Below are positions 24,001-30,000 of a stretch of DNA of 64,000 nt, in pieces (positions within the stretch are counted from its first letter, which is position 1; each line of letters opens with the position of its first letter). Position numbers: made by a program. This DNA is from Nitrospirota bacterium (GTDB lineage: Bacteria; Nitrospirota; Nitrospiria; Nitrospirales; Nitrospiraceae): positions 53,719 through 117,718 of the forward strand of contig CAVPBK010000014.1 in NCBI GenBank assembly GCA_963701855.1. The letters run 5' to 3'.

Positions 24001-27000
24001 CGAGGCAGGTCGGACGCCAACTCTTTTTCAATCTTGATTCCATGGCTGTCGGCCTTAACATCGATGAAATACAAGCACGAGGTGACAATGTCGTTGAAAT
24101 CCTCGTCCGTCAGCTTGGGTTCCATGTATCGGGCGTAATCGAGAATTTCTTGAATCAGCCGTTCGATTCGAAACACATCATCGAGTACCACTTTGCTGAA
24201 TTCTTGAATAAACTGGGGATCGTCTTTCCGTTCAGGAGCCAATTGAATAAAGGTCTTAATCGATGTGAGAGGGTTTCTGATCTCATGGGCAAAGCCGCCG
24301 GCGATCGTCTCCAGGGACTTGAGCCGATCCGTGCGTTTCATAAGCGTGTGCGAGCGATGAAGTTCTTCGTACAGCACAATGGTATCTAGCGCATTCGTGG
24401 CGGTTTGTGCCAGCGCGGCGAGCGTGGATCTGGTCAGGTCAGTTTCTCCGGCCATAGGTATTGCGGCACCGAGAAGTGAAAAGGCAATAAGACGGCCTTT
24501 AATGAGGTGTGGCACGATACGTGTGGTCTGCATGGCTTCCATGGCCGCGCGTGCGCCGGCTAAGGAGTCGGATTCTTGGAGACCTTCTGCCGAGTCGTCC
24601 TGTGTCATGATCCGGTTGGTTGCGAGCAGGTGGTGAGGCAGAGGATGGCTCATGGGCAGCGTCGGAGGAATAAGCATGGGAGCGGTTGGGCCAACCATGC
24701 TGGCGCGGCGATAGAATTCATGTTCGCGATCCAGCAGGAACAGCGTCCCATGGGTAGTGGCACCTGCTCGACAGAGTTCTTGGATAATACGATTTCCGAG
24801 CGTCGTGAGGTCGGTCATCGTTCCCAGGTCTGCCGCAAATCGTGTGACGACGTTCAATAGCTCACTGGAGGAAGGCATCAAGACGTTGGTATTCGGTGAA
24901 TGTGATGTCATAAGAAACAGGGCGCACAAGAGCACCACGTGGCCTACAAGTGGAACTGTTGACTGAGTATGACTAGCTTATGTGTTCAAAGATGTACAGG
25001 TGAGAGTATACACAGCCAGGGTACGTTCAGCTAGCAGATTTACTTTTATCAATGACGGCAAAGAAGGCCTGCCCATCAAGCGCAGGAAGGATGCGGGGTG
25101 TGAGGATACCGGCCTGCTGAAGGAGCGAGGCGAGTGAAGGTTGGTCGAACGTGTGCAGTAATCCATGCCGGATGGCCTCTCTGAGTCTGCCAAAGTAGTG
25201 CAGGGCGGTGTGGGCGGGTGGACTAAATTCATCCTGATTCGTGCTGTGCAGATGCCGGCGATAGAGCACCGAGAGATCGGTGTCGGGGTGGAGGACTGTG
25301 AGAACTAAGCGCCCTTGCGGATGGAGCGTGCGGTATAGCTCCCGAATTGTAACCAGTGGAGAGGGGACGAACGGGAGCGACAGATTGCAGACGATGCGAT
25401 GGAGGGACTGGTCCTTAAATGGAAGGCCCTGCGTCCAATCAACGTGCATCCATTCGGTGGTCAGGGGGGGGTGGACAGTGAGGGTGCCTCCGAAGTCACT
25501 GTCGAGTTCCCGCTGTAAGGCACGAAGACTCTGTCGGGCCTGCGTCAGCGGATCTTGAAAAAGCCCCAGGCCGATCATGTGAACGGGACGCGCTGGGCTC
25601 CATCCACGCTGCCGTGAGCGGTAGGCCTGGTTGACCATTGTGGCCCGGACTAAATCACCGTGGCCGACTCCCACATCCACCAGTACGGAGTTTGGCTCAA
25701 GCGGGCTGAGTAGGCGATAAAGATCGTCCAACAGTTTCCAGTATTCATGGAGGTTCCCGAGTTGGGGAAGCTGCTGCAGGTGCGTGAACCTCAAGGCCGC
25801 ACGTGTGAACTGCGAGAGATTGTGGCGAAGACGGGTACGCTCTAGCTCGATGTGCCGTTGACGGCTGAGCTTGTGACGGGTCTGTGCGTGGAATTCAGCA
25901 GGAATGGTCGGCAGCGAAACGGTTGCAGCGATCTGTTCCAGTATCTGCCGGAAGGCCGGGGAGTGTGGTTCGTTGAGTGGGAGATCCTGGCCAATCAACG
26001 GTGCGGAGATTGTTCCCAGACTGGTATGGGCCCCCAGCGCAGTGAGAAATGCCTGTGGAAGATCAGCCGGAGGCCATGGTCCGAGCGGGCTGCTGGGAAT
26101 AGTGAGAATGGCTGTTGGGGAACGAAGGAGGCGCAGGTCCGCAATGGTAGAAGCCAGATCAGTAAATTGGCCTGCGACGACATCGCCGACAAAGTGATCG
26201 ACATTGACATTGATCCCGAGCAGATTTGCGATGCCGCGTCGGAGTCCGTATTGGTGGTCGGCCACGAGATCATGACCATGAACAATCATGAGCATGGCTT
26301 GAATATCAACGACAGGATTGATCAGGAGCAGCAGGTCGATGGGACGGGATTGCACTGCCGCTTTGAGGGCGACGCGTGCGGTCAGGTCGCTTGCCATGAC
26401 GATCAGGGGAGCGGTTGGCCACGTATATTGCACAAACTCCACAACCTTTAGGAGGTCGGCTTGCATGCTCTGCAAGGTCGTCTGTTCCAGTTCGCCGTCG
26501 CTAAGCCCCAGATGGTCGGTGTGGTCGTACCTCAAGATTCGGAGCCGGTGATGCGCCAGGTAGTACGACAGGGTAATGGTATCCAACGCGGTTTGACCAT
26601 AACCGGGAGCGATGATGACGACCGGCGTGTTCGGTGCGAGCGATTGGCTAAGATGGTCGTCGACGATCATGATCGTCTGGCCGCGTGGATTTCGACACTC
26701 TCGAGGAATACTGACGATTGATGCGTGCTGTGAGGAGGAGTCCAATTTTCCAGGAGACATCAGATGCTGTTGAACGATACGGTTCACTTCGCGTTCAGCA
26801 TAGGGTGTGAGGCCCTGAAAACAGAGGCCGACCTGAAGCGCAGGATCGGAGCCTTGGTCACGAAACTCCCTGGGCGCTGCGAGATTCGAAGCCGTCCAGA
26901 CGATCTGGGCAGAGAGTGCGGAGTCCGGTGCGCCCGGTTCATGGGCTCCAGGGTGTTTCTGGACTTGTGTACCAGTGAAGTGCAATGTGGCAATACCACT

Positions 27001-30000
27001 CAGAAGTTCGGGGCGAGCGTTGAGGTGAAGGCAAACGCCGCCGCGACTGAGATTAGTGGTGAGTGCTTTGAAGAGGTGACTGTTTCCGGCAGGATCTGTG
27101 ACGTCAAGCCGGACTGGGAGCTGCAAGGCCACCCGCACAGCTTCACGGGGGCCAAAATCTTTCTGCTCGTGTGATACAGAGGCGGTGATGGCTGCCAGTT
27201 CGATCTGCTGTCTTGCCGCAAGAAGTACTTCAAGAGAGAAGGGTAGGGCCTGCTCCTGCGCAGCTTGGACCAGTGAGGCCAGGACGGCGGATTCTTCCCG
27301 CTTGGGTGAATCAAATGCGATGATGAGATGAGAGACTGGCGTTCCGGAAGAAAGTGAGGTGGGCCGTTCCTGTGCCTTACCGTGCAGTTCGAGGATTCCC
27401 ACGACAGTTTTGAGTACAACATAAGCATCTTGTGACGCAACGGAGGGGAAGTCGTTGGGGAGTGTAATGCAGGTCCCGCCGACGCTGAGGTTGGAAATAG
27501 TGCCACTCCAGGTTGCTGACCCGACTGTGATCGCAGCAGGCAGGGTGGTTGAAATTCGAGGTGAGAGACGCCGTTCCTGCTGCCGACTGCCGGAAACGAT
27601 TGTCGGAGCAGGCGCCGTTGTCGCTCTCTTTGTTTCAGGAGCGAGTCCGGGCTGTGCAGTAGAGACAGTAATCGGCAATGAGAGCATCTCACGTGTGGGG
27701 CGAGAGGCGATCGGAAGACGGAGGATTATACGGAGAGGGCCTTGCATCGGCGCAGACAAGTCCAAGGTGCCATTCAGTTGGCGGACAAGCTGATACGACT
27801 CGAGGAGATCAATGGGCGGGGGTGAAGTAGTCGGAGCTGTTGCCGACCCTACCGTTTCTGATTCGAGCAGCTCGACTTCCACCTCGGTAGGCGGGCTGAG
27901 AGGAAATAGTGAGGGGGTGTCTGTTGAGACGGAAGAAGGCCCAACTGGGTGCGTGCTCACGATGAGTCGATGTGCACGGCCCATTGTCAATAAATAGGTT
28001 TGCGCGTAGGCCAAGAGAGAACGAACGAGTGCTGTAACCTGCTCGCGATCGCCGACAAGGATGGAGAGGTGAGAGGAGAACTCCCGTATGATGCCGGCGC
28101 CATCCACGATTCCGGAAGTTGTGGACCTGAGTACGGTGTCAAGGATCTTGTTGATCGTATGTCCCGAGGTCTCTTTCTCGCTCTCGTGGAGTGCCTGCGT
28201 CAGCTGTGCGCCGAGTTTCGCTGCTTCTACGGCGTGGCTGGCAAGTGTTTCGGTTTGGTTGTCCAAACGTACCTCGCGAATCGTGGTGAGGAGTTGTTGG
28301 GACTGTGTTAGCAGTGAGGCCAGTGGATCGTGGAGCTGTTGGGACAACAGTGTGACTTGCTGGGCCAGCGCGAGCAACTCATCCGTGCGCCGGAGTTGCT
28401 GGCGAAGTTGAAGGATCGTAGCGCCTTGCTGCTTGGATTGGGACAGGTCTCGGATCAGTCCCACTGTGCCGAGGAATCGGCGAAGAGTATCATAGAGTCC
28501 TCTGGCGGTTACCTCCGCCGTGAGGATCTGCGGCTTGTTGTCTTGCGTGGGCTTCCCTCGCAAGGTCAATTCAATGCGGCTGGTGCCTCGCGCTCCGGAG
28601 CGGCGTTCGTTGAGGCGAAACTGAGCCATCGTCTCCTGGTCGGGAGGAACGAGAGTGGTATAGGGCAATCCGATGATTTCATCGGGAGAGTAGCCCAATA
28701 GTGTGACGATACCTGGGCTGATCGTCACGAAACAACCGCTGGCATCTAGTTCGTAGACAATGTCGCTGACTGATTCGATGAGCCGGCGATGGCGTTCGTG
28801 CCCGTAGTCCAGGGCTACTCTCAGGTGACGTATTTCGATGGCTTCCTTGGCACAGAACAGGAGCTCGGTGAGAAAGGCCGGAGATTTCTTCGAGAGGAAA
28901 AAGTCAACGTCGGCTTGGAGTGCTTGAAGTGCCGAGGCTGAGTCGGAGCGGTCGCTGTAGAGAATAATCCCCGCATAGGGTGCACGACGTTTGAGTTCGT
29001 CGGTCAGGGAGGAGTGGTATCCGGTGAGGCATTGTTCGTCGAGGAGGATGAGGATCCATTCGTGCGACAACGTCCATGCACGGGCTTCTTCGGCTGAATA
29101 GGCGACGTCCACGCGGCAGCCAGTAAAGAATCCTCGCAGACTGACGGTGATGAGTTTAATGGATTCAGCGTGTTCGCTGACAATCAGGATAGTGAACGGC
29201 TCACTCTGCGGCATCTAGATGTCCCTGTGCTTCCTGGGAATCTGAGCAAGCCCGGTTTCAGAGCGACAAGACAACGTTTGCTCGTCACATGATCTGAGAC
29301 ACACCGGCCCCTCGCTTCTGCTGCAAACGACTCGGGGCACGCATCTGAGGTTGAAGATGTGAATAGCACAAGCCGAGGTGAGAAACCCAGTCTACATGCG
29401 ATGAAATGGGCTTCTTCTTTGGTAGGGGGAGACTTCACGGACTTCGATGACGAACAAAATTGAACAGAATTGGAAGGGGACAGTGCGCGAGTCGGGACGG
29501 AAGGTTGTGGTACCCGCACAGACTGTATGGCGGATACCAGTGATGTATGTGGCTCCTACTTGAGGGCAAGTGGCGAAGGGGATGTTGTCGGACAAGCGCC
29601 AGGCGTCATGTACAGCAAGTAGTTTCCCATCCCATGCTGAGCCTCTTTTTTCTGCAAAGGATGGTGATGGACCATGAGCATCTCATAGTCATCAGCCTTC
29701 GTCACAGGAAACCCCTGACTGTCTTTATAGACTTGATGTGGCTGAAATTCGAGGAAGGTCCCGTCCTGGGTGACGTCAGGAACCGTCCGCAGCAGGGTTT
29801 GTTTTTTTGTCATATTGTCCAGCCCGATCATGAGGAGTTCGTCATGCCCATGTGGGTAGGCGAACTTCACACAGCCATCCATCCTGAACTTGAGCGGCGC
29901 CTTATGGACCTGGACTCCTGTTGTGACCTCAATCCCTTCATCCGTCTGGTCCGGACCTCGCTGGGAGAATTTGCTGAAGCACACAATATTGACACCGACC

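What a model noticed while it worked through the whole genome (the two positions that open the first line are those of the whole stretch)
25027..29214. Nitrospirota-specific 1395-aa signalling enzyme: REC-PAS-PilZ fused to a LuxD-like acyl hydrolase and a SAM methyltransf [...]
g04391 is one 1395-aa protein that joins input modules (receiver 9-111, PAS 142-256, PilZ 690-815 with RxxxR and NxSxxG, a second partial PilZ ~547-591) to two catalytic modules: an alpha/beta hydrolase of the LuxD myristoyl-ACP acyltransferase/thioesterase family (864-1033; best solved relative is Vibrio LuxD; its nucleophile elbow reads A-S-D-L-T against LuxD A-A-S-L-S, so the nucleophile is the Ser one place earlier or an Asp) and a class-I SAM methyltransferase (1161-1369). 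Length (1390-1397 aa) and domain order are fixed in about a hundred cluster representatives, all Nitrospira/Nitrospirota where labelled; Nitrospirota are 280 of the 713 bacterial genomes with the LuxD family. It lies [...]
Evidence so far: pfam.tsv rows; lenient Pfam of residues 1-400 and 401-700: Response_reg E 2.8e-7 (over cut-off), PAS 3.9e-10, second PilZ stretch 1.6e-5. relatives.tsv: Acyl_transf_2 in 52/84 genus, 212/370 family, 276/511 order, 280/1105 phylum, 713/189,784 bacteria. Search with residues 600-1395: 292 hits; of the best 120, 97 are 1370-1440 aa, 55-100% identical over 99-100% of the region, with PilZ+PAS+Acyl_transf_2+Hydrolase_4+Methyltransf_11 precomputed; shorter ones lie on short contigs. 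In 33 aligned full-length members the PilZ motifs, the elbow and methyltransferase motif I are >=95% conserved. phmmer of residues 840-1120 vs PDB: best 1tht, V. harveyi LuxD (E 7e-7, query 19-144 = LuxD 30-153), next [...]
(Added by a program. Inside this text positions count along the whole contig: contig position 53,719 is position 1 of the stretch shown here. "Call 12" and the like, gene names such as g00115 and contig names such as C1 are that model's own, and its searches are not shown. The text may have been shortened before it was handed on; [...] marks where a part breaks off. The agent that wrote the report below was given it as the finding of a first reader that could run no searches.)

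Follow-up and report, generated by a model that had tools for sequence, protein, structure and literature searches.

The report
Nitrospira c-di-GMP receptor with dead enzymes
A giant, conserved Nitrospira signalling protein has two binding sites for the messenger c-di-GMP and what look like two enzymes, but both enzyme parts have lost their key residues, so it is probably a regulator descended from a widespread, unstudied signal-making system.

Summary
The 1395-aa ORF (window 25027-29214, minus strand) and its domain order are real and conserved: 105 of the 120 listed relatives cover the whole protein. I add two things. Residues 263-505 are a degenerate histidine-kinase core. The "partial" PilZ is a second complete PilZ.

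The reading "signalling enzyme" is only partly supported. The hydrolase-methyltransferase part is a ~550-aa cassette that also occurs outside Nitrospirota, in Verrucomicrobiota, Omnitrophota and Syntrophobacteraceae, often standing alone. In 77 of 117 aligned cassettes a Ser/Asp/His triad matching LuxD S114/D211/H241 is kept in 77/77. The window's protein has Asp/Gly/Gly there. It also lacks methyltransferase residues that are near-invariant elsewhere, including the predicted ribose-binding Asp (here Gly).

The fold is intact (AlphaFold pLDDT 92.6; best structural match LuxD) and under purifying selection. All triad-dead Asp forms make one clade.

Triad-intact cassettes sit next to a 7TM-GAF kinase (20/20 loci). 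The dead forms sit next to a kinase without the 7TM part, then a sigma-54 regulator and a REC-HD-GYP phosphodiesterase (10/10 loci).

The protein is most likely a c-di-GMP-reading pseudoenzyme regulator. The scan reached the same reading earlier for a homologue on other DNA.

The parts
25027..29214 (-). Whole gene, 1395 aa (P0001)
   Evidence: ORF list and translation. It is the only cassette-type gene found in its own genome, which is 97% complete.
28840..29190 (-). Receiver (REC) domain, residues 9-125
   Evidence: Pfam Response_reg scores 28.8 bits against a cut-off of 30.2. D59 is kept in 36/36, S87 in 35/36, K109 in 27/36 (plus 7 Arg). The acidic pair reads S13-E14 instead of D-D.
28429..28797 (-). 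PAS domain, residues 140-262
   Evidence: Pfam PAS E 1.9e-9; TIGR00229 E 8e-11.
27700..28428 (-). Degenerate histidine-kinase core (DHp-like plus CA-like), residues 263-505
   Evidence: The NCBIfam AtoS and FixL alignments run on from the PAS domain into this region. A family HMM of these columns hits, after the orthologues, the partner kinases at E 1e-7 to 1e-3 among 565 ORFs. That alignment puts the H-box His on Q292 (His in 2/36) and the N-box Asn on Y403 (36/36). Pfam alone finds nothing here.
27220..27579 (-). PilZ-1, residues 546-665
   Evidence: Second PilZ stretch in Pfam. R548, R549 and R553 are 36/36; N575 is 31 N / 5 D; S577 is 27 S / 9 G; G580 is 36/36.
26755..27150 (-). PilZ-2, residues 689-820
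   Evidence: Pfam PilZ 690-815. R690, R694, S723 and G726 are 36/36; N721 is 30 N / 6 D.
25885..26649 (-). LuxD-like alpha/beta-hydrolase fold without the catalytic triad, residues 856-1110
   Evidence: Acyl_transf_2. AF2 model pLDDT 92.6. Best structural match is LuxD 1tht: Foldseek E 8e-13 with target TM 0.75-0.76, VIA Z 24.3 with 275 residues aligned. The triad columns read D943/G1045/G1075.
26386..26388 (-). Codon of D943, at the position of the LuxD nucleophile Ser114
   Evidence: Translation ASDLT. Alignments to 1tht. D in 36/36 family members.
25720..25884 (-). Inter-domain helices, residues 1111-1165
   Evidence: Long helices 275-334 of the model. Mean pairwise identity 0.69.
25030..25719 (-). 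Class I methyltransferase fold with a degenerate cofactor/substrate site, residues 1166-1395
   Evidence: Methyltransf_23 and Methyltransf_11. Structural matches OxaG, Coq5 and TmtA at Z about 20. G1217 stands where 77/77 Ser-type cassettes have Asp.
23634..24938 (-). Partner histidine kinase, 434 aa, without a 7TM region
   Evidence: HisKA plus HATPase_c. It is 51% identical over ~410 aa to the GAF-kinase part of the 716-986 aa 7TM-GAF kinases of relatives. It has no TM7 match and no hydrophobic segment.
22185..23619 (-). Sigma-54-dependent response regulator (REC-AAA+-HTH), read in two frames in the window
   Evidence: Pfam. It is intact at 475 aa in L021. One base at 22560/22561 is absent from independent contigs.
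20832..21983 (-). REC-HD-GYP protein (predicted c-di-GMP phosphodiesterase)
   Evidence: Pfam Response_reg plus HD_5. The motifs HDIGK and HHERWDGSGYP are in the translation. NCBIfam NosR-family phosphodiesterase scores 186 bits, under its cut-off of 400.
29245..29260 (-). Conserved block upstream of the gene that resembles a sigma-54 promoter
   Evidence: TGAAACCGGGCTTGCT lies 31-46 nt before the ATG. The same block reads TGGGAC-N5-TTGCT in four other genomes of the genus.

Best explanation
P0001 is a non-catalytic c-di-GMP receptor and signalling adaptor. Its C-terminal half descends from a LuxD-type acyl thioesterase fused to a SAM methyltransferase. In other lineages that cassette keeps all its catalytic residues and is always encoded beside a 7TM-GAF sensor kinase. 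In the Nitrospiraceae lineage of the window the cassette kept its fold but lost the Ser/Asp/His triad and the substrate- and cofactor-site residues of the methyltransferase. The partner kinase lost its 7TM sensor.

Shown here: the residue losses, the intact fold, purifying selection, a single origin of the dead form, and the conserved gene order cassette - kinase - sigma-54 regulator - REC-HD-GYP.

Inferred: the two PilZ domains bind c-di-GMP; the REC domain (D59) takes phosphate from the adjacent kinase; the pseudo-kinase core serves for dimerisation; and the rigid pseudo-hydrolase/pseudo-methyltransferase body acts as a binding surface. That surface would pass the c-di-GMP and phosphorylation state on to the kinase / sigma-54 pathway. 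The REC-HD-GYP protein would feed back on the c-di-GMP level.
For: Triad: 116 of the 148 further representatives (all but the two family members among the 150 listed) span the cassette. With P0001 that gives 117 aligned cassettes, whose nucleophile column reads S 77, D 22, G 14, N 4. Within the 77 Ser forms the acid column is D 77/77 and the base column is H 77/77. These columns are LuxD S114, D211 and H241. Ser114 is the acylated residue of a classical triad (PMC6279958 passages). P0001 has D943/G1045/G1075. In 36 family members the counts are D943 36/36, no His at 1075 (G21 D6 E5 S4) and Asp at 1045 in 1/36.

Methyltransferase: D1217 is 77/77 Asp in Ser forms and Gly here (G24 E10 A1 M1 of 36). 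C1183, Y1213, W1142, Y1145, Y1282, K1309 and E1348 are also replaced.

Fold: AF2 pLDDT 92.6, pTM 0.92. The only weak stretches (block means 61-78) are model residues 201-220, 241-250 and 271-280, which lie around the former acid and His loops. LuxD is the top structural match.

Constraint: the hydrolase N-core and lid are the most conserved parts (pairwise identity 0.74 and 0.72, against 0.52-0.65 for the other domains; 0.69 for the helices between hydrolase and methyltransferase). dN/dS against the closest genome is 0.18 for the hydrolase, 0.11 for the methyltransferase and 0.27 for the whole gene (one pair).

Phylogeny: all 31 tips with an Asp nucleophile and lost acid/His form one clade with support 0.996.

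Context: 10/10 dead-form loci from 10 genomes have a 420-450 aa kinase without 7TM, then a sigma-54 regulator, then REC-HD-GYP. 20/20 triad-intact loci (19 distinct) have a 7TM kinase next, or next but one.

PilZ motifs are intact in both domains. HD and GYP motifs are present in the neighbour. No triad-intact paralogue was found in the own genome, which is 97% complete.
Against: No binding or activity was measured. D943 is invariant and S942 and H981 are 36/36 within the genus-level family, which could mark a new active site rather than a binding site. Motif I of the methyltransferase (G1182-x-G1184-x-G1186) is still present in P0001, and 10 of 36 members have Glu at 1217, so SAM binding is not excluded. 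The REC domain scores under the Pfam cut-off and has S-E instead of D-D, so phosphorylation is uncertain. The link between the dead triad and the 7TM-less kinase rests on one clade, which is effectively one evolutionary event. The residue equivalences in the acid/His region come from MAFFT alignments of divergent loops. The roles of the methyltransferase residues are assigned from the general class I motif pattern, which I recalled and did not read from a complex structure.
Confidence: 0.6

Rival explanations
1. P0001 is an active bifunctional enzyme. Its LuxD-like domain, with S942 or D943 as nucleophile, frees a fatty acid from acyl-ACP and its methyltransferase esterifies it, under control of c-di-GMP and phosphorylation.
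For: Pfam places both domains above threshold. The fold is intact and rigid. Both domains are under purifying selection. S942 and D943 are 36/36. Motif I glycines are present in P0001.
Against: There is no His or acid at the triad columns. The nearest conserved-looking His, H1084, is kept in only 21/36. S942 is Ser in only 11 of 22 Asp-type representatives, with E 7, P 2, N 1 and F 1. The Acyl_transf_2 match stops at profile position 197 of 294. The methyltransferase lacks the Asp that is 77/77 elsewhere, along with six other near-invariant residues.
Confidence: 0.12
2. The dead synthase has become a small-molecule receptor. The pseudo-hydrolase pocket still binds the old substrate or product (an acyl chain, acyl-ACP or a fatty-acid ester) and reports it to the now soluble kinase. 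It would thereby replace the lost 7TM sensor.
For: The hydrolase N-core and lid, which form the pocket in LuxD-type folds, are the most conserved parts. The motif R895-x-D897...H901-x-G903-x-S905-x-G907, shared with LuxD, is kept in all 117 cassettes or nearly all. Loss of the triad and loss of the kinase's 7TM part go together. Some genomes keep a live and a dead copy side by side, for example L111 and L110 of one genome.
Against: No ligand is known even for the live enzymes. A predicted complex of the kinase with residues 836-1395 gave no verdict, so it says nothing either way. The co-loss is a single event.
Confidence: 0.15
3. The Asp-type hydrolase domain performs a new chemistry with an Asp nucleophile, as in dehalogenases or epoxide hydrolases (families named from recall), or serves as a methyl acceptor for its own methyltransferase.
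For: D943 is invariant at the nucleophile elbow. A separate small clade (L032, P0145) has Asp with the acid and His retained, a D/D/H arrangement.
Against: Asp-nucleophile alpha/beta hydrolases still need the His base (recalled), and His is absent here. The methyltransferase site is itself degenerate.
Confidence: 0.05
4. The C-terminal half is a decaying remnant with no function of its own, carried along by the working REC-PAS-PilZ part.
For: Loss of catalytic residues in both domains.
Against: The length is fixed at 1378-1438 aa in 105 of 120 listed relatives. The dead form is kept across several genera down to ~34% cassette identity. dN/dS is 0.11-0.18 in these domains. They are the most conserved parts of the protein. 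The fold is predicted with high confidence.
Confidence: 0.03

Closest known systems
LuxD, myristoyl-ACP thioesterase/acyltransferase of Vibrio harveyi (PDB 1THT; Pfam PF02273)
   Same: It is the best sequence and structure relative of the hydrolase domain: phmmer E 1.7e-6, Foldseek E 8e-13 with target TM 0.75-0.76, VIA Z 24.3 with 275 of 293 residues aligned. The loop motif R-Y-D-x-x-x-H-V-G-x-S-x-G is shared. Triad-intact relatives match LuxD end to end (profile E 6.7e-39, chain 12-295).
   Different: Ser114, Asp211 and His241 are Asp, Gly and Gly here. The domain is fused to a methyltransferase and to sensor domains, and there are no lux genes nearby. It is far below the NCBIfam LuxD equivalog cut-off (46.5 against 420 bits).
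PhcB-PhcS quorum sensing of Ralstonia (a methyltransferase makes methyl 3-hydroxymyristate; a sensor kinase in the same operon detects it)
   Same: This is a working analogy for the triad-intact relatives only. A SAM methyltransferase that could esterify a fatty acid is encoded directly beside a membrane sensor kinase and response regulators (search listing; passages of PMC6989110; contexts).
   Different: No sequence comparison was possible, because no PhcB sequence is held by the tools. No PhcB-labelled gene was among the 25 listed of the 45 plasmid records hit by a stand-alone cassette. The passages read describe only a methyltransferase domain in PhcB and no LuxD-like domain. P0001 itself lacks the catalytic residues.
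PilZ-domain c-di-GMP receptors fused to or acting on enzymes (BcsA, Alg44; MapZ acting on the methyltransferase CheR1)
   Same: [quoted passage not shown] Tandem PilZ-PilZ proteins are described (passages of bioRxiv 10.1101/814665 and 10.1101/2020.02.11.943704).
   Different: The passages found by my search terms describe no PilZ fusion to a LuxD-like hydrolase plus methyltransferase. Here the output module is catalytically degenerate.
Degenerate-enzyme receptors: LapD and FimX (inactive GGDEF/EAL domains as c-di-GMP receptors) and GID1 (an alpha/beta-hydrolase fold without its catalytic His, serving as a hormone receptor). All three are recalled, not read here.
   Same: An enzyme fold is kept under selection after loss of its catalytic residues and is used for binding or signalling.
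   Different: The folds and ligands differ. In P0001 c-di-GMP is read by separate PilZ domains, and what the dead domains bind is unknown.
PrsK/PrsR, the two-component system of the XrtA/PEP-CTERM system (TIGR02916, TIGR02915)
   Same: The cassette-linked kinases align end to end with PrsK, for example residues 13-701 on profile positions 8-679. HK434 matches the GAF-kinase part, positions 310-679. The partner regulator is sigma-54-dependent like PrsR.
   Different: The scores of 108-150 bits are far below the 300-bit cut-off. A true PrsK (324 bits) and PrsR (622 bits) pair lies elsewhere in the same genome.

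Membership tests
LuxD / Acyl_transf_2 acyl-ACP thioesterase-acyltransferase | Match to the family profile above the curated cut-off | tested here: met
   PF02273 scores 48.1 bits against a cut-off of 20.3, but only over profile positions 31-197 of 294. The NCBIfam LuxD equivalogs score 46.5 and 45 bits against cut-offs of 420 and 529, so they are not met.
LuxD / Acyl_transf_2 acyl-ACP thioesterase-acyltransferase | Nucleophile Ser at the elbow (LuxD Ser114, the acylated residue) | tested here: not met
   D943 aligns with S114 and is D in 36/36. The role of Ser114 comes from passages of PMC6279958.
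LuxD / Acyl_transf_2 acyl-ACP thioesterase-acyltransferase | Acid and His of the triad (LuxD D211 and H241 by alignment; that these two are the triad partners is recalled) | tested here: not met
   P0001 has G1045 and G1075. Ser-type cassettes have D 77/77 and H 77/77 in those columns.
LuxD / Acyl_transf_2 acyl-ACP thioesterase-acyltransferase | Alpha/beta-hydrolase fold closest to LuxD | tested here: met
   AF2 pLDDT 92.6. 1tht ranks first in Foldseek and in VIA-align.
LuxD / Acyl_transf_2 acyl-ACP thioesterase-acyltransferase | Acyl-ACP or acyl-CoA cleavage activity | not testable with these tools
   This needs an enzyme assay.
Class I SAM-dependent methyltransferase | Profile match and Rossmann-like methyltransferase fold | tested here: met
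   Methyltransf_23 scores 28.6 against 27 and Methyltransf_11 scores 25.8 against 21.2. Structural matches are OxaG, Coq5 and TmtA at Z 19.9-20.6.
Class I SAM-dependent methyltransferase | Motif I glycines (GxGxG) | tested here: met
   P0001 has G1182-V-G1184-H-G1186. In the family these are kept in 26/36, 36/36 and 23/36.
Class I SAM-dependent methyltransferase | Acidic residue after strand 2 that binds the ribose of SAM (role recalled from the general motif pattern) | tested here: not met
   P0001 has G1217. The family reads G24, E10, A1, M1 of 36. Ser-type cassettes have D in 77/77.
Class I SAM-dependent methyltransferase | SAM binding and methyl transfer | not testable with these tools
   This needs binding and activity assays.
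PilZ c-di-GMP receptor domain | [quoted passage not shown] | tested here: met
   PF07238 scores 47.5 bits against 22.5, in two stretches. Both motif pairs are conserved in 36 members.
PilZ c-di-GMP receptor domain | c-di-GMP binding | not testable with these tools
   This needs ITC, DRaCALA or a similar assay.
Response-regulator receiver domain | Profile match above the cut-off and the full set of phosphorylation-site residues | tested here: inconclusive
   The score is 28.8 bits against a cut-off of 30.2. D59 is 36/36, S87 35/36 and K109 27/36, but the acidic pair is S13-E14, and position 14 is Pro in 6/36.
Histidine kinase core (HisKA + HATPase_c) | Profile match | tested here: inconclusive
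   Pfam finds nothing on residues 261-545 and PDB phmmer finds nothing significant. A family HMM does hit the partner kinases at E 1e-7 to 1e-3 among 565 ORFs, and the L030 homologue has weak HisKA and HATPase_c matches at E about 0.005.
Histidine kinase core (HisKA + HATPase_c) | Phospho-accepting His (H box) and ATP-binding Asn (N box) | tested here: not met
   The H-box position is Q292 (His in 2/36). The N-box Asn position is Y403 (36/36).
PhcB-type fatty-acid methyl ester autoinducer synthase | Sequence relationship to PhcB | not tested
   No PhcB sequence was available from any tool. None of the plasmid hits listed was labelled PhcB.

The most novel reading that the evidence does not exclude
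The window's operon is the silenced descendant of an undescribed signalling system found in several phyla. In that system a LuxD-like thioesterase fused to a methyltransferase, often gated by c-di-GMP through PilZ domains, makes a fatty-acid-derived signal such as a methyl ester. The adjacent PrsK-like 7TM-GAF kinase senses the signal. In this Nitrospiraceae lineage the synthase died but was kept as the ligand-binding sensor subunit of a kinase that has become soluble. These bacteria would therefore no longer make the signal but would still read it, or its acyl precursor, inside the cell together with c-di-GMP.
Probability: 0.15. Interest if true: 0.85.

Novelty: new variant of a known kind. 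Interest (0 to 1): 0.6.

Why it matters
Nitrospira are key nitrite oxidisers in soils and in wastewater biofilms, yet little is known about how they use c-di-GMP. This protein is conserved across several Nitrospiraceae genera and heads a fixed four-gene signalling unit. That makes it a strong candidate for a central c-di-GMP receptor in these organisms.

Reading it correctly also changes what should be tested. The useful experiments are binding and phosphotransfer assays, not a search for an enzyme product.

The wider result may matter more. A LuxD-like thioesterase-methyltransferase cassette sits beside a PrsK-like 7TM kinase in Nitrospirota, Verrucomicrobiota, Omnitrophota and Syntrophobacteraceae. 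This looks like a synthase-receptor pair for an unknown lipid-type signal. If so, it gives a concrete way to ask what this class of 7TM kinases senses.

My literature searches found no paper describing the cassette, its pairing with the kinase, or the dead Nitrospira form.

Tried and rejected
1. Predicted complex of the 434-aa kinase with residues 836-1395: no verdict, score 0.00 in both runs. It is not evidence either way.

2. First AF2 model with 36 close relatives: pLDDT 62.3, too poor to use. Its Foldseek hits were generic. It was replaced by the 89-row model.

3. Sigma-54 promoter scan of the window: 34 matches against 32 expected by chance. A candidate before the HD-GYP gene (22017-22032) was seen in none of the 12 other loci checked and was dropped.

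4. PhcB comparison: no sequence was obtainable. tblastn of a stand-alone cassette against plasmids gave 45 records, none covering 80% of the query. The best was a LuxD on a lux plasmid at 27.5% identity.

5. Pfam and PDB phmmer on residues 261-545 alone: nothing significant.

6. orf361 upstream (29556-30641): no Pfam or NCBIfam family. The protein atlas gave only Nitrospirota hypothetical proteins and a weak SURNod19 lead at 0.92.

7. Expression: the runs available are contigs only. Contigs of 150-480 nt, 90-95% alike, from two RNA libraries of one study lie on all 30 bins of 20800-31000. They come from relatives, DNA carry-over is not excluded, and no level, strand or transcript ends can be read.

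A smaller alignment worked.

9. Of the 79 loci kept, 55 match only the methyltransferase part at 22-35% identity. I set these aside as generic class I methyltransferases.

10. One cassette hit lies on a 2.4-kb contig labelled as an archaeon (L036). It is too short to judge the binning.

Full report
**Observation.** The window holds one ORF of 1395 aa on the minus strand, 25027-29214, starting at ATG.
- Response_reg 9-111 (28.8 bits, just under the 30.2 cut-off)
- PAS 142-256
- PilZ 690-815, with a second stretch
- Acyl_transf_2 864-1033 (48.1 bits, but only profile positions 31-197 of 294)
- Hydrolase_4
- Methyltransf_23 1161-1369 and Methyltransf_11 1253-1305

A search of 5.8 billion clustered proteins found 309 relatives at E<=0.001. 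Of the 120 listed, 105 cover 100% of the query at 1378-1438 aa. Every organism-specific source name is Nitrospira, Nitrospiraceae or Nitrospirota/Nitrospirae, apart from one partial record labelled only 'bacterium'.

- NCBIfam alignments to the kinases AtoS and FixL run on from the PAS domain to about residue 400.
- An HMM built from residues 263-505 of 36 family members was searched against 565 ORFs of related loci. After the orthologues, its best hits are the histidine kinases encoded next to the cassette (E 1e-7 to 1e-3).
- That alignment puts the phospho-accepting His of the H box on Q292 (His in 2 of 36) and the N-box Asn on Y403 (36 of 36).
- Pfam and PDB phmmer on this stretch alone find nothing significant. 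I therefore call it a degenerate kinase core, not a kinase.
- The "partial" PilZ is a whole domain. R548, R549 and R553 are 36/36, N575 is N or D in 36/36, and G580 is 36/36. PilZ-2 has R690, R694, S723 and G726 in 36/36.
- The receiver keeps D59 (36/36), S87 (35/36) and K109 (27/36), but it has S13-E14 where receivers usually have two Asp.

**The output half is a family of its own.**
- An exhaustive HMMER search with residues 836-1395 found 663 cluster representatives at E<=0.001 and 149 at E<=1e-30. Nearly all of the 150 listed matched in a single stretch, most of them spanning both domains.
- Pfam on 40 of them shows four forms: the hydrolase-methyltransferase pair standing alone (547-590 aa), behind one PilZ, behind two PilZ, and behind REC-PAS-...-PilZ-PilZ.
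- Source names are "hypothetical" or "methyltransferase/esterase/lipase", from Omnitrophica and candidate division WOR-1.
- In one genome per species, 24 of the 79 loci kept carry the cassette. By record title they come from Nitrospirales, Syntrophobacteraceae, Opitutia and other Verrucomicrobiota, and Omnitrophota, plus one 2.4-kb contig labelled archaeal.
- In a sample of the window's phylum, 69 of 401 genomes have the cassette at E<=1e-30. Within its family the figure is 52 of 75.
- So "Nitrospirota-specific" holds at most for the full-length form.

**Catalytic residues.** I aligned P0001 with the 116 of the 148 further representatives (all but the two family members among the 150 listed) that span the cassette, 117 in all.
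- The nucleophile column reads Ser 77, Asp 22, Gly 14, Asn 4.
- Within the 77 Ser forms, one column is Asp 77/77 and another is His 77/77.
- A triad-intact relative aligns with LuxD 1tht at E 9.5e-20. These three columns fall on LuxD S114, D211 and H241.
- A review states that Ser114 is the acylated residue of a classical triad (passages of PMC6279958). That D211 and H241 are its partners is my recollection.
- P0001 has D943, G1045 and G1075. Among 36 family members D943 is 36/36, the His column is G21 D6 E5 S4, and the acid column holds Asp once.
S942 is Ser in only 11 of 22 Asp-type representatives, and H1084 is kept in 21 of 36.
- In the methyltransferase, Ser forms keep D1180, G1182, C1183, G1184 and G1186 (76-77 of 77), Y1213 (72), D1217 (77/77), W1142 (77), Y1145 (76), Y1282 (76), K1309 (75) and E1348 (71).
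- Every Asp form with the acid and His lost has lost K1309 and E1348, and all but the two earliest-branching ones (L113, P0134) and P0122 have lost Y1282. The window's sub-clade has also lost C1183, Y1213 and D1217, which is Gly in 24 and Glu in 10 of 36.
- By the general class I motif pattern (recalled), D1217 is the acid that holds the ribose of SAM.

**Structure.**
- With 36 close relatives AlphaFold gave only pLDDT 62.
- With 89 rows that include distant cassettes it gave pLDDT 92.6 and pTM 0.92 for residues 836-1395. This indicates one rigid two-domain body.
- The only weak stretches (block means 61-78) are model residues 201-220, 241-250 and 271-280. They lie around the former acid and His loops.
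- LuxD is the best match in Foldseek (E 8e-13, target TM 0.75-0.76). It is also best in a Foldseek-independent scan of 48,161 chains (Z 24.3, rmsd 3.6 Å, 275 aligned).
- The second domain matches small-molecule methyltransferases (OxaG, Coq5, TmtA; Z about 20). No coordinates are returned, so I could not inspect the pocket.

**Selection.**
- Within the family the hydrolase N-core and lid are the most conserved parts (mean pairwise identity 0.74 and 0.72). The old acid/His part is relaxed (0.55). The other domains lie at 0.52-0.65 and the linkers at 0.27; the helices between the hydrolase and the methyltransferase reach 0.69.
- Against the closest genome (96% identical protein) dN/dS is 0.18 for the hydrolase core, 0.11 for the methyltransferase and 0.27 overall (one pair, few substitutions).
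- The dead domains are therefore kept for something.

**Phylogeny.** The tree was FastTree LG+gamma with 150 tips and midpoint rooting. The three triad columns were removed before building it.
- The nucleophile changes state at least 11 times, with Ser at the root.
- All 31 tips with Asp and a lost acid/His form one clade (support 0.996) that contains the window.
- Two Asp forms that keep the acid and His (L032, P0145) branch apart.
- The loss in the window's lineage is thus one old event, maintained through several genera.

**Context.** The gene is followed on the same strand by three genes:
- a 434-aa HisKA-HATPase kinase;
- a sigma-54-dependent regulator;
- a REC-HD-GYP protein, with the motifs HDIGK and HHERWDGSGYP.

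This order is kept in 7 of 7 loci of the genus. I compared 33 loci:
- All 20 triad-intact loci have a 693-1002 aa kinase next, or next but one in L019. These are 19 distinct places, because L028 and L115 are the same place.
- Those kinases match the 7TM region of the L020 kinase. Pfam finds HisKA_7TM in 11 of 12 such neighbours scanned at E<=1e-8, and in 3 of 3.
- All 10 Asp-type loci with a lost acid/His, from 10 genomes, have a 420-449 aa kinase with no 7TM match, then the sigma-54 regulator, then REC-HD-GYP.
- The window's kinase is 51% identical to the GAF-kinase part of the long kinases. Only 88 bp separate it from P0001, so the 7TM part is truly absent.
- Intermediates exist. L032 is Asp/Asp/His with a 506-aa kinase. 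L030 is Gly-type with no separate kinase, and its own kinase-like core scores weakly for HisKA and HATPase_c. L018 is Gly-type with a 7TM kinase.
- Because the Asp forms are one clade, this co-variation counts as one event, not ten.
- The own genome (97% complete) has no triad-intact copy.

**Most likely mechanism.** The triad-intact cassette looks like a two-step enzyme. A LuxD-type domain would take an acyl group from ACP or CoA and release it, and a fused methyltransferase would act on the product. It is always paired with a membrane sensor kinase. That is the layout of a signal synthase with its receptor, as in PhcB-PhcS of Ralstonia (search listing; passages). This is inference: no product is known.

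P0001 cannot work that way. I propose that it is a pseudoenzyme adaptor:
- c-di-GMP binds the two PilZ domains (inferred from motifs);
- the adjacent kinase may phosphorylate D59 (inferred from gene order);
- the kinase-like core dimerises the protein (inferred);
- the rigid C-terminal body passes the state on to the kinase / sigma-54 pathway;
- the HD-GYP protein lowers c-di-GMP in return (inferred).

I give this 0.6. The sharper version, in which the dead pocket still binds an acyl ligand and replaces the lost 7TM sensor, gets 0.15.

**Comparison with what is known.** Searches for PilZ with methyltransferase, hydrolase and LuxD, for Nitrospira with c-di-GMP and PilZ, for HisKA_7TM, and for fatty acid methyl ester with autoinducer, thioesterase, methyltransferase and histidine kinase found no paper on this cassette. 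Two PilZ surveys, read as passages only, describe tandem PilZ proteins and the MapZ-CheR1 pair, but not this fusion. Their supplementary tables were not seen and may list the architecture. The cassette-linked kinases resemble PrsK end to end but score 108-150 bits against a cut-off of 300.

**Earlier notes of this scan.** I looked these up after my own analysis. They describe the same family in at least 11 other genomes. One note on a 1384-aa Nitrospira homologue reached the same "dead enzyme core" reading. They are not independent evidence.

**Expression and assembly.** Only assembled contigs of public runs were available. Contigs 90-95% alike from two RNA libraries of one study lie across the whole operon. 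This is no more than a hint that relatives are transcribed. A near-identical DNA contig lacks one base at 22560/22561. That base is the one that splits the sigma-54 regulator into two frames in the window. The regulator is 475 aa and intact in L021. The split is therefore most likely an assembly error.

**Limits.**
- There is no biochemistry.
- The residue equivalences in the acid/His region come from alignments of divergent loops.
- The tree is approximate and midpoint-rooted.
- Gene contexts for Asp forms come only from Nitrospiraceae genomes.
- The complex prediction gave no verdict.

Noticed in passing
window 22185-23619 (-), break near 22560: The sigma-54 response regulator is read in two overlapping frames in the window (371 aa and 217 aa). 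It is one 475-aa ORF in L021. A near-identical DNA contig (run X1) and an RNA-library contig (X16) lack one base at 22560/22561, within GGTT. The split is probably an extra base in the assembly and not a pseudogene.
   Followed up: yes
window 29245-29260 (-): A conserved block lies 31-46 nt before the start codon. In four other genomes of the genus it reads TGGGAC-N5-TTGCT, which is sigma-54-like. A fifth genome has TGGGTG...TTGCT. The window and its closest relative have TGAAAC, so the GG is lost. The operon may be sigma-54-dependent and self-activated in most of the genus.
   Followed up: partly
L018 5801-7150 (-); L019 5616-6968 (-): In two order-level relatives a 449-450 aa gene lies between the cassette and the 7TM kinase. 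It encodes a PilZ domain fused to a TENA/THI-4 / Haem_oxygenas_2 (iron-containing redox enzyme) domain. This would be a second c-di-GMP-gated enzyme in the same unit.
   Followed up: no
L018 7436-11029 (-); L019 7085-10633 (-): These 1197-aa and 1182-aa cassette proteins have about 320 further residues after the methyltransferase with no Pfam match. I did not test that.
   Followed up: no
L119 (own genome, contig C11) 4509-9188: A true PrsK (324 bits against a cut-off of 300) and PrsR (622 against 503) pair, with a PEP-CTERM FemAB-family gene, lies elsewhere in the same genome. It is the only HisKA_7TM-like kinase found there.
   Followed up: partly
L034 5356-6723 (-): In the Syntrophobacteraceae locus the gene just upstream of a stand-alone, triad-intact cassette is a FadL/TodX-type outer-membrane channel for hydrophobic compounds (E 6e-59). 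This fits a lipid-like product.
   Followed up: no
L110 and L111 (one genome): Some genomes carry both forms. One is a ~1400-aa Asp-type protein with a short kinase, a sigma-54 regulator and HD-GYP. The other is a ~950-aa triad-intact protein with a 1002-aa 7TM kinase. In one genus 13 of 13 sampled genomes had a match, and all listed had two.
   Followed up: partly
L030 5309-9616 (+): A 1435-aa Gly-type homologue has no separate kinase gene after it. Its internal kinase-like core still scores weakly for HisKA (E 0.006) and HATPase_c (E 0.005). The pseudo-kinase of P0001 may therefore derive from a working hybrid kinase.
   Followed up: partly
window 29556-33226 (-): A 361-aa protein with no known family, a SnoaL-like protein, a PP2C phosphatase and an RNase H-like protein lie upstream on the same strand. 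They are conserved in order within the genus (63-92% identity) and were not found next to the order-level relatives.
   Followed up: partly
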